Below, one piece after another: positions 21,001 through 24,000 of a DNA stretch of 64,000 nt. The stretch covers positions 75,847 to 139,846 of the forward strand of contig CAINFC010000079.1 of the NCBI GenBank assembly GCA_903847975.1. Reading direction: 5' to 3'. Numbering within the stretch: position 1 is the first letter of the stretch; every line of letters starts with the position of its first letter. Position numbers: made by a program. Source of the stretch: an uncultured Acidobacteriota bacterium (GTDB lineage: Bacteria; Acidobacteriota; UBA6911; CAINFC01).

Positions 21001-24000
21001 GCCCCGCTTCAGCTTCGCCTGGGACGTTTTCGGTACCGGCAAACTGGCGGTCCGTGCCGGAGTCGGCGTGTTCCACGGGGTGACCGGAATCGCCTACTCC
21101 GGATGGTACCTGGGGGCCCGCGCGCCGCTCATCCAGTCGACATCGATCTCCAACGGCTTTGCCGACAACCCGGCCAGCGGCGTTCCCAGCACCACGATCT
21201 ACCCGATCGACGCCGGCGCGCTGCCGTCCGAATACAAGATTCCCACCATGTACAACTACACTTTGGGCATTCAGACCATTCTCCCGTACGCCACCCAGCT
21301 GGACGTCAGCTATGTGGGCAATACCGGCCGGCACCTTTCTCTGAGCCGCAACCTGAACTACATCACTCCCGAGGTCCAGGCCGCCCACCAGGGAGTCGAC
21401 CTGCGCCCCTTTGCGCCCTATCCCGGACTGGGCGGGCTCAATATGGTGGAGCCCTCGGCTACCTCCAGCTACAACGCCATGCAGCTGGCGGCCCGGAGGC
21501 GCACCGGGCAGATCACCTACAGCGTTTCCTACACCCTGGGCAAGATTATGGGCTACGGAAATGAGGGTGTTGCCGGCGGGATGCAGAATCCCAACAACTG
21601 GCGGCTGGACCGATCGGAACTGGAAGAAAGCCGCCGGCACTATGCCATCATCATGCACACCTGGGAGTTGCCGTGGTTTAAAACCCAGCAGGGGCTGCTG
21701 GGCAGAATCCTGGGTGGCTGGTCGATCACCGGGGTTTGGACTCTCAACACCGGGCGGCTCTATTCGCCCGGGCTGACCGCTGTGGCCCGGGGGGTTGCCA
21801 GCCGTCCGGACGTGGTGGGAGACTGGGAGCTGCCCAAAAGCGAGCGCACCATTTTCCGATTCTTCAACACCGCGGCATTTGCCCGGCCGAAGGACTGGAC
21901 GTTCGGCAACGCGGGAAAGTGGATCGTTCGCGGACCGGGCACCATCGACCTGAGCGCGTTTGCCCTCAAGGACATCAAGGTGTGGGAAAGAATCAAGCTG
22001 CAGGCGCGGGTCGAGGCCTTCAATGCTCCGAACCACATGAACCTGCAGGACATCAACACCACCCTGGGGAATGCGTCCTTCGGCCAGGTAAGCGGCGTAG
22101 GTGCGCCGCGCTACATCCAGCTCGGCATGAAGATGCTCTGGTAAATCTTCCCGGCATCCTTTCGCAACTGTCAAGCCACAAGGCCGGCCCGGGCACGAAA
22201 ACCCGGGCCGGCCTTTTTCTTGATAACCCGGCAAAAAGTCGAAATTCATTTTATGTTCTGCGGTCCCTTACGGGACTGGCGTGTGTACTGCACGGGACGA
22301 AATAGCGGAGATCATACCGTTGTACTACGGCCTTGCCTTGTCAGGCCCTGCGTTTGCCGGCACACGGCTGTAATTCCGAGGCATAAGTCCCGTCAGGGAC
22401 GACAAGATTATGGCCCGGCAATTTATTGCCGGGTTGGCTCCAGCGCGGGGTAAGACCCATCGGGACGGTAGAACCGGACGAAAAAACGGGTTTTTTTCGA
22501 AGCCATCCTTCCTGACAAACCGGTAAAAAGTCCCATATCTGGAGATTTCCGTTGGGGAAAGCACCTGAAAGGGCTTGGCAACACAGCCCGGGGTTGGCGC
22601 GCTTCGCGCCTACCCCGGGTAGGGACACCCTCTGGCGACAACCCGGAAAGGGTTGCGCAAAATCCGTAATGACCGTTGTTTGCGCAGCCCTTTCCGGGCA
22701 GTATTTTAAACAAAACCGCCTACCCGGGGTAGCGCCTGTGCGGCGCAACCCCGGGCTGTGATCCGGAACCCCTTGCGGGGTTCCAGACCTTTTACCGCTT
22801 CCTCGTTTTTCACTCTTGTCCAAAATAATTAAATGCCAAACGCGCTTTCCAGCACCAGCAGATGTTTGTCCCAGACAATATTCCATGAGCCTGGTTGCAG
22901 GAAAAACAGGGTTGTTTTAAGCGGGGGGCGCCGGTAGAATATAGCCATGTCGGAAAAGCCGATAAAGCAATATTCTATAGAACCGTTCACCGGCCTGCCG
23001 CAGGAGGCGGCCGCCGCGCTCCTGCGTCGCGGAATGGAACTGGAGTTTCCCGAAGGAGAGTGGATTTACCGGCAGGGCGCAAATGACGAAGAAATCTACC
23101 TGCTGGTTTCCGGAAGCGTGGAAGGAATCCTGCTATCCGAATCGGGCGTTCCGACCACCGTTTTCAATTGGGAGTCAGGGGATCTCTTCGGGGAAGAATG
23201 CCTTTTCGTGGCCGGGGCAAGACGGGAATCGGCCCGGACGACGGCCCCTTCGAAGTTGTTTCGGATCGGCCGGCAGGACTTCGAGGAGGCCCAGACCGAA
23301 TTTCCGGCTCTGTCGGCTTTTCTCTCACGGGCGCTCTTCCAGCACATTTCCCGTATCCACGAGCATCTCCATCACTCTGCCGAAATGGAACAGGCTTACC
23401 TGAAGTTCCTTTCCGCGCACGGCGGGGGAAACCACTGGCGGCCCCTGGGGAGGAGCGAATCGCTGAGAAGGGTTCGGGAAGCGGCGGAAGCGGCCGGAGG
23501 GAACCGGAATCCCGTTCTCCTGGTGGGGCCCGCCGGAACCGAGAAGCAGGACGTGGCCCGAAGCATCCATGCCGGCGGGGCCCGTCCCAACGCCCCCTTT
23601 CTGGTCATGGACGCCAAGACGGTCGGTCTGGAGCTGATCCTTGGCACCTCCGGCGAGGATGTCGGGGAAATGGCCCGGGAACTGGCTCAGGACCTGGCAC
23701 TTTTCGGATGCCGGATCGGCATCCCCACGGCCGCGGATGTGGATCGCATGGGATACCTGCGGGTAGGGTCCGGGGGGACGGTGCTCATTGAAAATGTGGA
23801 GTGCTTATCCGTGGTGGTCCAGGAGCGGCTTTACAATTTTCTTCGGACCGGCAGCCTCCTGCCTATGGGGGCTGATTTTCCTATCCGTTCCAACGCCCGC
23901 ATCATGGTTTCTACCACCGTGGATCTGGCGGCCTGGGCCGAGGCCGGCAAGTTTCACCCGGGGCTGCTTTCCTGCTTTCAGAAGCCTTACCTTCAGTTGC

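What the first reader, a model, noticed from the sequence alone, without database searches (positions are those of the whole stretch)
22145..22946. An 800-nt non-coding region with a terminator, nested palindromes and repeats upstream of the fusion gene: candidate sRNA or regulatory locus
In a genome that is otherwise compact here, the gap between the TonB-receptor-like gene and the fusion gene contains several structured features: (i) a perfect terminator at 22182..22218; (ii) the conserved structured element copy A at 22384..22476; (iii) an A/U hairpin CGAAAAAA-cgggt-TTTTTTCG at 22478..22498; (iv) a dispersed-repeat copy at 22515..22585; (v) a 175-nt nested palindromic REP-like structure at 22584..22757; and (vi) a second terminator-like hairpin at 22764..22795, still 150 nt before the next start codon. 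I found no protein-like ORF in the region.
Basis: seen in the sequence. Interest (0 to 1): 0.6.

Follow-up and report, generated by a model that had tools for sequence, protein, structure and literature searches.

The report
Mosaic of palindromic repeats, not an sRNA locus
The long gap between two genes is mostly a pile-up of short, hairpin-rich repeated DNA elements that recur elsewhere in this uncultivated soil-type bacterium (one is a diverged copy of the known Acido-Lenti-1 motif), so it is ordinary "junk-like" mobile repeat DNA rather than a dedicated regulatory RNA gene.

Summary
Window 22145-22946 is non-coding and far more structured than chance (fold z = -8 and -9.4), and every listed feature exists. 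It is not one sRNA or regulatory locus.

Only two parts are locus-specific:
- the first ~70 nt, a canonical terminator of the upstream outer-membrane-protein gene;
- the last ~150 nt, the unique, AT-richer 5' region of the fusion gene.

The middle ~570 nt (22217-22800) is a mosaic of dispersed repeat modules. They recur at 71-89% identity in unrelated gene contexts, on contigs with the same tetranucleotide signature.
- **X**: 22257-22421.
- **A**: a three-hairpin element at 22381-22479, with copy B at 42471-42571. It is a diverged Acido-Lenti-1 motif (Rfam RF01687): 26.5 bits here, 48 bits for a sister copy, cut-off 37.
- **Y**: 22518-22800, a ~285-nt nested palindrome bounded by inverted repeats.

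The 181-aa ORF annotated here in public records is a spurious call over the repeats.

Best reading: lineage-restricted, MITE/REP-BIME-like non-autonomous repeats that accumulated in a permissive spacer of an uncultivated Acidobacteriota-like genome. RNA-level roles are not excluded. This is a new member of a known kind, of modest interest.

The parts
22180..22215 (+). Intrinsic terminator of the upstream OMP_b-brl_4/CarboxypepD_reg gene (18848-22144). It is locus-specific and is not part of the repeats.
   Evidence: Perfect 14-bp GC-rich stem, 8-nt loop and T-run. No homologue in other loci by BLAST. The ftsZ-DE Rfam match at 32.5 bits (cut-off 72.2) is only hairpin resemblance.
22217..22240 (+). 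Solo copy of the end motif TTCTTGATAACCCGGCAAAAAGTC. It is the same motif as the left end of Y at 22509-22532.
   Evidence: Direct repeat at 83% (family D1). The motif CCGGCAAAAAGTC also occurs at module ends in L051, L052, L053 and window 42306.
22257..22421 (+). Module X (~165 nt). It begins with hairpin GTCCCTTACGGGAC (22263-22277) and ends in hairpin H1 and the 5' arm of H2 of element A.
   Evidence: 88% identity to L051 10511-10348 and 80% to L053 10038-10201, in different gene contexts.
22381..22479 (+). Element A, with three hairpins: H1 22387-22400, H2 22414-22433, H3 22455-22465. It is a diverged Acido-Lenti-1-type motif. Its long form runs to about 22533.
   Evidence: Copy B is 78% identical. 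Model R1 scores 118 bits on A and B (the two sequences it was built from). It scores 67 and 66 bits on L051 and L053. Rfam RF01687 gives 26.5 bits on the minus strand at 22386-22433. The sister copy in L053 scores 48 bits, above the cut-off of 37.
22479..22499 (+). A/U hairpin. It is the tail of the long form of A, and reads as two degenerate end motifs abutting (CGAAAAAAC / GTTTTTTTCG).
   Evidence: Aligned to GACGAAAAAACGACTTTTTGCGAAG in L053 and to the L051 copy. It resembles the right-end motif ACTTTTTGCCGG of Y.
22518..22800 (+). Element Y (~285 nt), a nested palindrome bounded by inverted repeats. Its parts are:
- left inverted repeat 22518-22532;
- hairpin 22587-22619;
- central hairpin 22642-22698;
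- hairpin 22723-22755;
- right inverted repeat 22786-22800.
   Evidence: Copies at 82-89% identity:
- one in L051;
- two tandem copies plus one partial in L052;
- one in L053 (same as L054);
- two in L055.

The inverted-repeat arms are 87% complementary (pair I10). In the consensus structure 93.9% of cells are paired, against 33-52% when the partners are slid.
22801..22946 (+). Unique, AT-richer (GC about 0.47) 5' region of the fusion gene. This is the likely place of its real promoter or operator.
   Evidence: No similarity to any other locus. Composition. Palindrome TAGAATAT...ATATTCTA at 22935-22977 spans the start codon (pair I6).
22341..22886 (-). Spurious 181-aa ORF, called as a gene in public assemblies.
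   Evidence: Codon statistics are non-coding. There is no Pfam match. Its only 'homologues' are 16 of 1.84 billion representatives and 5 of 5.8 billion clusters. Fifteen of those 16 are ORFs over the same DNA repeats read in other frames. The sixteenth, P0142, is an unrelated repeat protein.
42471..42571 (-). Copy B of element A. It lies in the divergent gap between a SpoU-type methyltransferase gene and a radical-SAM gene.
   Evidence: Two G.U pairs in H2 on this strand would be A.C mismatches on the other strand. There is no Rfam match.
42299..42457 (-). Module V, adjacent to B. It ends in the same end motif (GACTTTTTGCGAGATGG).
   Evidence: 82% identity over 159 nt to L053 10486-10643, next to a Y copy there. 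There is a weaker match in the relative L047.
53079..53141 (+). Solo fragment of the left end of Y, in the gap between convergent genes.
   Evidence: 74-87% identity to the Y copies of L051, L052, L053 and L055.

Best explanation
The gap is a terminator plus a promoter region, separated by a pile-up of lineage-specific, non-coding, hairpin-rich dispersed repeats. The repeats form a mosaic of modules: X, A (an Acido-Lenti-1-type three-hairpin unit), Y (a ~285-nt nested palindrome bounded by CCGG(C/T)AAAAAGTC inverted repeats), and a solo end motif.

Shown:
- the modules are non-coding;
- they recur at 71-89% identity in unrelated intergenic contexts;
- they recur in both orientations and in tandem;
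- they are joined to each other in different orders;
- their palindromic structure is kept.

Inferred:
- they are, or were, non-autonomous mobile DNA of the MITE / REP-BIME kind;
- they are copied by an enzyme encoded elsewhere. A tyrosine (HUH) transposase of the RAYT/TIRYT type, acting on single-stranded hairpins, is the most plausible candidate, but none was seen;
- they accumulate in spacers where insertion is tolerated;
- when transcribed from the neighbouring genes they fold into stable hairpins that can incidentally block read-through or stabilise 3' ends, but that is not why they are here.
For: **Dispersal**
- Y recurs at 82-89% identity in L051, L052 (two tandem copies plus a partial), L053 (same as L054) and L055 (two copies), between unrelated genes (for context; 49, 56, 68 for matches).
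- X recurs at 80-88% in L051 and L053.
- A recurs at 42471-42571 and in L051 and L053.
- V is shared between window 42299-42457 and L053.

**Same or a very close genome**
- Tetranucleotide correlation of L051, L053 and L055 with the window is 0.97-0.985, at GC 0.59-0.61. Other Acidobacteria-like loci give 0.71-0.83.
- L054 comes from the same sample as an exact copy of this region, L002.

**Mosaic behaviour**
- Y follows X in the same orientation in the window and in L051, but is inverted in L053.
- L051 lacks window 22422-22519 exactly between CCCGGC|AA and CCGGT|AA.
- Y sits in sense to its neighbours in the window and antisense to both in L053.

**Ends**
- The 12-15-nt inverted repeat recurs at the ends of Y, V and the long form of A, and as a solo copy.

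**Not coding**
-. The ORF 'homologues' read the same DNA in different frames.

**Structure kept**
- 93.9% of cells are paired, and there is a compensatory G-C to U-A change in the central hairpin in 3 of 7 copies.

**Precedent**
- The Acido-Lenti-1 seed has 89 copies, many in tandem arrays with spacings from about 74 to about 200 nt.
- REP, inverted-repeat families and their tyrosine transposases, including an Acidobacteria-specific TIRYT group, are described in PMC3733652.

**Weak constraint**
- 2 of the 4 differences between window and L001 over 8.6 kb fall in this gap. One breaks a pair of the central hairpin.
Against: - No transposase or other mobilising gene was found in the window ORFs tested or in the gene tables of the fetched loci.
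- No target-site duplication could be defined, and no empty site was available.
- Copy number per genome is unknown. Three of the four extra loci were found through Y itself, so density is biased. The unbiased window holds one full Y, one solo end, two A copies, one X and one V in 64 kb.
- The same-genome origin of the other contigs is inferred from composition only.
- One-sided changes in Y give G.U on the + strand more often than A.C (about 15 against 7 cells by my own count from the table). The invariant U.G pairs fit the same pattern. Together they hint at selection on one single strand, which could be RNA.
- The A family has real covariation in Rfam.
Confidence: 0.7

Rival explanations
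1. Element A (and B) is a genuine small non-coding RNA gene of the Acido-Lenti-1 family, acting in trans. X and Y are unrelated neighbours.
For: - The Rfam family is filed as an sRNA with covariation.
- The sister copy in L053 scores 48 bits, above the cut-off of 37.
- G.U pairs in B favour one strand. The seed has 38 A.C against 8 G.U cells, which also favours one strand.
- The H1-H2-H3 architecture is also seen upstream of published copies.
Against: - The window copy scores 26.5 bits and B has no match.
- No sigma-70-like promoter was found, and no canonical terminator follows A.
- A is physically fused to X and to the end motif of Y. It is truncated at the same point in L051 and L053.
- A-type units flank X as inverted repeats in L051 and L053.
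- Orientation relative to neighbouring genes is inconsistent.
- The family is multi-copy and tandem, which is typical of repeats.
Confidence: 0.15
2. The region is a long structured 5' leader or cis-regulatory RNA (riboswitch-like or attenuator) of the cNMP-binding/sigma-54-activator/ferredoxin fusion gene.
For: It lies upstream of the gene on the same strand. It is very stable when folded. There is a terminator-like hairpin 150 nt before the start codon.
Against: - The same modules occur upstream, downstream and antisense of unrelated genes.
- No Rfam cis-regulatory family matches.
- The hairpin at 22762-22787 fails the terminator criteria.
- The canonical terminator at 22180 would stop read-through from the OMP gene before the repeats.
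- Distant homologues of the fusion gene (42% identity or less) leave no comparable leader to examine.
Confidence: 0.05
3. The minus-strand 181-aa ORF (22341-22886) is a real small protein with a handful of homologues.
For: It is called as a gene in the ENA and NCBI records. There are 16 hits with E < 1e-3 among 1.84 billion representatives.
Against: - GC is flat across codon positions and the codon score is negative.
- There is no Pfam match.
- Fifteen of the 16 hits cover only the repeat part and carry the same DNA in shifted frames. An example is SLPGVGAKRANPG against GVPTRGRREARQPRAV. Two tandem copies sit inside one 'protein'. The sixteenth, P0142, is an unrelated repeat protein.
- The DNA identity of 82-89% is not concentrated at synonymous sites, and indels are not multiples of three.
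Confidence: 0.02
4. The structure is an assembly artefact, that is, a chimeric join at palindromes.
For: Other assemblies of the same organism break inside Y, at window positions of about 22651, 22716 and 22745. The OMP contig of one sample appears to end right after the gene.
Against: The whole 802 nt is identical in an independent assembly (L002). It differs by 2 SNPs in another (L001). It also lies inside a 209-kb NCBI contig. Breaks at long palindromes or repeats are expected for short-read assemblers.
Confidence: 0.02

Closest known systems
Acido-Lenti-1 RNA motif (Rfam RF01687; Weinberg et al. 2010, PMC2864571)
   Same: - An 8-bp hairpin with a 4-nt loop, a 12-13-nt linker, then a 5-bp hairpin (the published seed has a 3-nt loop in the second hairpin).
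- Sequence resemblance, for example CCCRGC..GCYGGG-CYAU..CG-UCCC..GGGACU.
- Found in Acidobacteria.
- Multi-copy and often tandem.
- A third small hairpin on the far side, as in published flanks.
   Different: - The window copies are below the family cut-off (26.5 bits, and no match for B).
- The loop and linker consensus of the family (CUNACG loop, GCUA after the stem) are not kept.
- Here the unit is embedded in larger repeats and acts as the inverted ends of module X.
- Wobble pairs argue for the strand opposite to the one modelled in Rfam.
Bacterial MITEs (e.g. Correia/NEMIS of Neisseria, ERIC/IRU of enterobacteria, RUP/BOX of pneumococcus). This comparison rests on established knowledge, not on a test here.
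   Same: 100-400 nt in length, with no coding capacity. They have terminal inverted repeats, fold into long hairpins, are intergenic and multi-copy, occur in both orientations, and are often mis-called as small ORFs.
   Different: - No target-site duplication could be defined.
- No parent insertion sequence with the same ends was seen.
- The modules recombine into mosaics and tandem arrays.
- The ends of different modules share one motif.
REP / BIME / REPIN elements, with RAYT or TIRYT tyrosine transposases (Di Nocera et al. 2013, PMC3733652)
   Same: - GC-rich hairpins tagged by GTAG: GGGGTAG-GCGCGAAGCGCGC on the minus strand of 22587-22619, and GGGGTAG-CGCC..GGCG at 22723-22755.
- Head-to-head inverted pairs.
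- Mosaic clusters with other motifs.
- Compensatory changes.
- Acidobacteria have their own TIRYT group, and one described family of inverted-repeat elements.
   Different: - The units are much larger (285 nt against 20-40 nt).
- The inverted pair is about 100 nt apart, with its own central hairpin.
- No RAYT or TIRYT gene was seen in about 130 kb examined.
- GTAG repeats were not among the phyla listed for Acidobacteria in that survey.

Membership tests
Rfam Acido-Lenti-1 (RF01687) | Covariance-model score at or above the curated cut-off of 37 bits | tested here: not met
   Window copy A scores 26.5 bits, E = 9e-4, on the minus strand at 22386-22433. Copy B has no match. Nothing reaches the cut-off in the window. 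Homologous copies elsewhere score 48.0 bits in L053 (met) and 31.5 bits in L051.
Rfam Acido-Lenti-1 (RF01687) | Two hairpins (8 bp and 5 bp) joined by a linker of about 12 nt | tested here: met
   H2 is 22414-22433 (8 bp, 4-nt loop). The linker is 13 nt. H1 is 22387-22400 (5 bp, 4-nt loop).
Rfam Acido-Lenti-1 (RF01687) | The strand of the model is the strand that pairs best | tested here: not met
   In B, two pairs of H2 are G.U on the opposite strand and A.C on the Rfam strand. In the published seed, 38 cells are A.C/C.A and 8 are G.U/U.G on the Rfam strand. Many of these cells are inherited, so they represent few independent events.
Rfam Acido-Lenti-1 (RF01687) | Occurs in Acidobacteria or Lentisphaerae | tested here: met
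   The best named relatives of the window's RarA protein (65% identity) are Terriglobales and Acidobacteria MAGs. OMP_b-brl_4 with CarboxypepD_reg is present. This is an inference, not a phylogeny.
MITE (miniature inverted-repeat transposable element) | Short, with no coding capacity | tested here: met
   Y is about 285 nt. Codon statistics are non-coding, and the ORF 'homologues' read the repeat in shifted frames.
MITE (miniature inverted-repeat transposable element) | Terminal inverted repeats | tested here: met
   AACCGGTAAAAAGTC (22518-22532) pairs with GACCTTTTACCGCTT (22786-22800) at 87%. The consensus is CCGGCAAAAAGT / ACTTTTTGCCGG in six of the seven aligned copies; L055a is truncated at its right end.
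MITE (miniature inverted-repeat transposable element) | Multiple dispersed copies in one genome | tested here: inconclusive
   There are 7 full or near-full copies plus 3 fragments, in the window and four other contigs. Same-genome origin is inferred from a tetranucleotide correlation of 0.97-0.985. No whole genome was available.
MITE (miniature inverted-repeat transposable element) | Target-site duplication flanking the ends | tested here: inconclusive
   Sequence similarity between copies continues beyond the inverted repeats (ATC-TTYCTGAY-NNN). No direct repeat could be recognised and no empty site was available.
MITE (miniature inverted-repeat transposable element) | A parent element or transposase with matching ends | tested here: not met
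   None was found in the Pfam scans of 39 window ORFs or in the gene tables of L051, L053 and L055. The rest of the genome could not be searched.
REP / REPIN with RAYT | [quoted passage not shown] | tested here: inconclusive
   GTAG directly precedes the inner hairpins of 22587-22619 (minus strand) and 22723-22755 (plus strand), and the two are inverted. However, they are parts of a 285-nt unit, not free 20-40-nt repeats.
REP / REPIN with RAYT | A cognate RAYT or TIRYT gene in the genome, flanked by the repeats | not testable with these tools
   Only about 130 kb of the organism was readable. The genome is not among the GTDB representatives carrying the element.
Intrinsic (rho-independent) terminator | A GC-rich stem followed immediately by a T-run | tested here: met
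   This is met for 22180-22215. It is not met for 22762-22787 or for the A/U hairpin at 22479-22499.
Stand-alone sRNA gene | Own promoter and terminator, with consistent placement | tested here: not met
   There are no sigma-70-like sites in 21800-23300. No terminator follows A. The orientation of copies relative to neighbouring genes varies. Transcription itself is not testable here.

The most novel reading that the evidence does not exclude
The modules are not passive repeats. They would be a family of transcribed, modular structured RNAs, each domain closed by the same CCGGCAAAAAGU/ACUUUUUGCCGG stem. The Acido-Lenti-1 unit would function on the strand opposite to its Rfam annotation. One possibility is that these are single-stranded hairpin signals or guide-like RNAs that direct their own copying by a still unidentified HUH or recombinase enzyme. 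Another is that they work as bidirectional insulators which the host has recruited.
Probability: 0.08. Interest if true: 0.65.

Novelty: new member of a known kind. Interest (0 to 1): 0.3.

Why it matters
**Annotation.**
- It removes a false 'hypothetical protein' from public annotation, along with about fifteen sister ORFs.
- It explains why short-read assemblies of this organism break at this spot.

**Rfam family.**
- Acido-Lenti-1 has been filed since 2010 as a candidate sRNA of unknown function. Here it behaves as part of a mosaic of dispersed repeats.
- Its wobble pairs favour the strand opposite to the one modelled.
- That is a concrete lead for re-curating the family.

**Organism.**
- It documents new MITE/REP-like families in a poorly sampled Acidobacteriota-like lineage.
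- It does not open a new kind of biology.

Tried and rejected
**Rfam.**
- The gathering-threshold scan of the whole window found nothing.
- E-value scans gave only the Acido-Lenti-1 match and hairpin-level noise, such as ftsZ-DE, microRNA families and the C4 antisense RNA family.

**Collection scans.**
- A scan of 185,579 species genomes for the A/B core gave 43 hits. All were chance matches with unrelated flanks.
- JGI metagenome scans gave 0 hits for the core of the 22587-22619 hairpin. They gave one chance hit inside a coding region for the central hairpin.
- The viral contig scan gave 0 hits.
- I therefore consider the family lineage-restricted.

**Synteny.**
- I used RarA relatives at 80% identity (L047, L049, L050). 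There is no A/B copy there.
- The SpoU upstream gap in L047 is only 132 nt. Only a weak V-like stretch is present.

**Dead ends.**
- P0142, a 1734-aa hit with 10 matched stretches, is an unrelated repeat protein.
- The motif AAGTCCC is not enriched window-wide: 10 found against 9.6 expected.
- ARAGORN found no tRNA or tmRNA.
- Integron attC sites, sigma-54 promoters and sigma-70 promoters inside the end motif were considered by eye and dropped. The consensus positions do not fit.
- Several contigs carrying sister copies had no DNA available.
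Full report
**Setting.** The 802-nt gap lies between two + strand genes. Upstream is a 1098-aa outer-membrane beta-barrel gene (OMP_b-brl_4 with CarboxypepD_reg and Plug, 18848-22144). Downstream is an 867-aa gene that fuses a cyclic-nucleotide-binding domain, a sigma-54-interaction AAA+ domain and 4Fe-4S motifs (22947-25550). The window comes from an uncultivated organism. The same proteins sit on ENA, NCBI and Logan contigs up to 209 kb long. The RarA protein encoded in the window is at most 80% identical to any protein outside its own organism. 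Its best named relatives, at 65%, are Terriglobales and Acidobacteria MAGs.

**Check of the observation.**
- The hairpin at 22180-22215 is a perfect 14-bp GC-rich stem followed by a T-run, 35 nt after the stop codon. It is the only + strand site in the area that passes the terminator scan.
- The region folds far better than shuffled sequence on both strands, with z = -8.0 and -9.4. That pattern is expected for DNA palindromes.
- A 181-aa minus-strand ORF is called as a gene in public assemblies, but it is not coding. Its GC by codon position is flat (0.58/0.57/0.52), whereas real genes here have third-position GC of about 0.7-0.8. Its codon score is -0.17, against +0.31 and +0.40 for the two flanking genes. 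It has no Pfam match.

**The spurious ORF as a probe.**
- Searching it against 1.84 billion representative proteins returned 16 hits.
- Searching 5.8 billion clusters returned 5 hits beyond the query's own cluster.
- All matches fell on the ORF residues that cover 22493-22808.
- The sequences show that 15 of the 16 hits are other ORFs called over the same DNA. The same stretch appears in different frames (SLPGVGAKRANPG in some, GVPTRGRREARQPRAV in others). One 'protein' holds two tandem copies. Some also contain the translation of element A or of 22255-22345.
- The remaining hit, a 1734-aa protein, is an unrelated repeat protein.

**The contigs behind those ORFs.** They gave DNA from different gene neighbourhoods. 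BLAST and alignments then resolved the gap into modules.
- **Module X (22257-22421).** 88% identical to L051 and 80% to L053.
- **Element A (22381-22479; long form to about 22533).** It has copy B at 42471-42571 at 78%, and copies in L051 and L053.
- **Element Y (22518-22800).**
  - It has one copy in L051, two tandem copies plus a fragment in the 936-nt contig L052, one copy in L053 (same as L054), and two in L055, at 82-89%.
  - It is bounded by the inverted repeat CCGG(C/T)AAAAAGTC.
- **End motif.** The same motif closes module V (42299-42457, 82% to L053) and the long form of A, and stands alone at 22228-22240.
- **Coverage.** Together the modules cover about 71% of the gap. Only 22145-22216 (terminator) and 22801-22946 have no counterpart elsewhere.

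**The modules behave as a mosaic.**
- Y follows X in the same orientation in the window and in L051, but is inverted in L053.
- L051 lacks window 22422-22519 exactly between two short CCGG(C/T)AA repeats.
- Y is in sense to both neighbours in the window and antisense to both in L053.
- In L051 and L053, X is flanked by two A-type units in inverted orientation. There the Acido-Lenti-1-type hairpins act as the inverted ends of a larger element.
- A covariance model built from A and B also picks up the right arm of Y on the minus strand, at 16.7 bits with E about 0.01. That arm shares the scheme small hairpin - GGATCAY - GCCCGG(hairpin)CCGGGT(T/A)GGC.

**Same-organism inference.** L051, L053 and L055 have the window's tetranucleotide signature (r = 0.97-0.985, GC 0.59-0.61). 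Other loci give 0.71-0.83. L054 comes from the same sample as an exact copy of this gap. I therefore take these contigs as the same or a very close genome. This is an inference.

**Link to a known family.**
- At Rfam's curated thresholds nothing in the window matches.
- With E-value reporting, 22386-22433 matches Acido-Lenti-1 (RF01687) on the minus strand at 26.5 bits, against a cut-off of 37.
- B gives no match. The L051 copy gives 31.5 bits. The L053 copy gives 48 bits, above the cut-off.
- Element A is therefore a diverged member or near relative of that motif.
- The original description is brief. It reports 89 representatives in Koribacter, Lentisphaera and environmental sequence, no gene association, and occasional proximity to group II introns. 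It classes the motif as a probable non-coding RNA.
- The published alignment shows many tandem copies with spacings from about 74 to about 200 nt. It also shows a third small hairpin on the far side, as in our H3.
- In that seed, 38 paired cells are A.C or C.A and only 8 are G.U or U.G. On the opposite strand these numbers swap. Copy B shows the same pattern. If a single strand matters, it is probably the one opposite to the Rfam model. Many of these cells are inherited, so the number of independent events is small.

**Structure of Y.**
- Seven copies give a consensus of 91 pairs with 93.9% of cells paired. With the partners slid by 1-3 columns, 33-52% are paired.
- Most pairs never vary, so covariation is weak. 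Four pairs have changes on both sides, and 109 of 500 shuffles reach that number.
- There is one clear G-C to U-A swap in the central hairpin, in three copies.
- The window copy carries T in both end repeats where the other copies have C and G.
- By my own count from the table, one-sided changes give G.U on the + strand in about 15 cells and A.C in about 7. That is a hint, not proof, of selection on one strand.
- Between two assemblies of the same strain, 2 of 4 differences over 8.6 kb fall in the gap. One breaks a central-hairpin pair.

**Distribution.**
- The A/B core is absent from one genome per 185,579 species. All 43 pattern hits were chance matches.
- Two Y cores are absent from JGI metagenomes, where the single hit was a chance match in a coding region. 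One was also scanned against viral contigs, with no hit.
- RarA relatives at 80% identity lack A/B and have a short SpoU upstream gap.
- The Y and X families are therefore confined to this lineage.

**What it most likely is.**
- The gap holds a terminator and a promoter region, separated by accumulated, lineage-specific, non-autonomous repeats of the MITE / REP-BIME kind (confidence 0.7).
- The repeats, their mosaic arrangement, their lack of coding capacity and their conserved palindromes are shown.
- Mobility and the enzyme are inferred. No transposase was found in 39 window ORFs or in the fetched loci. No target duplication could be defined.
- Acidobacteria are known to carry their own group of REP-type tyrosine transposases with inverted-repeat families (PMC3733652). 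That makes a single-strand hairpin mechanism the most plausible candidate.

**Rivals.**
- A is a true trans-acting sRNA: 0.15.
- The region is a cis-regulatory leader of the fusion gene: 0.05.
- The ORF is real: 0.02.
- The arrangement is an assembly artefact: 0.02.

**Verdict.** These are new members of known kinds of element, with one useful side result on the Acido-Lenti-1 family. Interest is 0.3.

Noticed in passing
window 22341-22886 (minus strand): Public assemblies (ENA, NCBI) annotate a 181-aa hypothetical protein here. It and about 15 'homologous' proteins (P0136-P0141, P0143-P0152) are mis-called ORFs over repeat DNA.
   Followed up: yes
window about 22651, 22716, 22745: Three other assemblies of the same organism start their contigs at these points inside element Y. 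The OMP-bearing contig of one sample appears to end just after the gene. The palindrome or repeat breaks short-read assemblies.
   Followed up: partly
Rfam RF01687 seed alignment (PMC2864571, supplementary file 183): On the annotated strand, the paired columns hold 38 A.C/C.A cells and 8 G.U/U.G cells among 70 distinct sequences. The opposite strand would pair better, so the family may be modelled on the wrong strand.
   Followed up: partly
window 42200-42708: The divergent gap between the SpoU-type methyltransferase and radical-SAM genes is also mostly repeat modules (B plus V). The relative L047 has only 132 nt at the equivalent place.
   Followed up: partly
window 53044-53288: This gap between convergent genes holds three things:
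- a solo left end of Y (53079-53141);
- a perfect 16-bp hairpin (53159-53196) that looks like a bidirectional terminator;
- TAAGTCCCGTCA (53256), identical to the start of element A, with a match to L055 10517-10553.
   Followed up: partly
window 22935-22977: The inverted repeat TAGAATATAGCCATGTCGG / CCGATAAAGCAATATTCTA spans the annotated ATG of the fusion gene. A -10-like TAGAAT lies 6 nt (ATAGCC) before the ATG. This could be an operator, and the mRNA could be leaderless or the start codon mis-called.
   Followed up: no
window 22947-25550: The protein fusing cNMP-binding, sigma-54 AAA+ and 4Fe-4S domains has very few relatives. There were 6 hits at E <= 1e-30, the best at 42% identity, among 5.8 billion clusters.
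   Followed up: partly
window 8640-8670: An end-motif-like sequence (GACGGTCCGGTAAAAAGTAGTGAGC) lies in the 8502-8835 gap. It may be another solo repeat end.
   Followed up: no
window 1321-2383 and 36069-37120: These are two further gaps of about 1 kb in my rough gene map. They have no Rfam match and no similarity to the repeat modules. I did not examine them further.
   Followed up: no
PMC2864571 supplementary file 61 (Lentisphaera araneosa NZ_ABCK01000026 37613-38258): Each ~200-nt tandem unit that carries an Acido-Lenti-1 copy also contains GCGGGCAAAAAGGUC. This resembles the end motif CCGGCAAAAAGTC found here. It may be coincidence.
   Followed up: no
window 11231-18285 and 33164-35098: Three PIG-L (GlcNAc-PI de-N-acetylase) domain proteins, a sodium:solute symporter and a glycosyltransferase cluster lie upstream of the OMP gene. 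This repetition of PIG-L domains is unusual.
   Followed up: no
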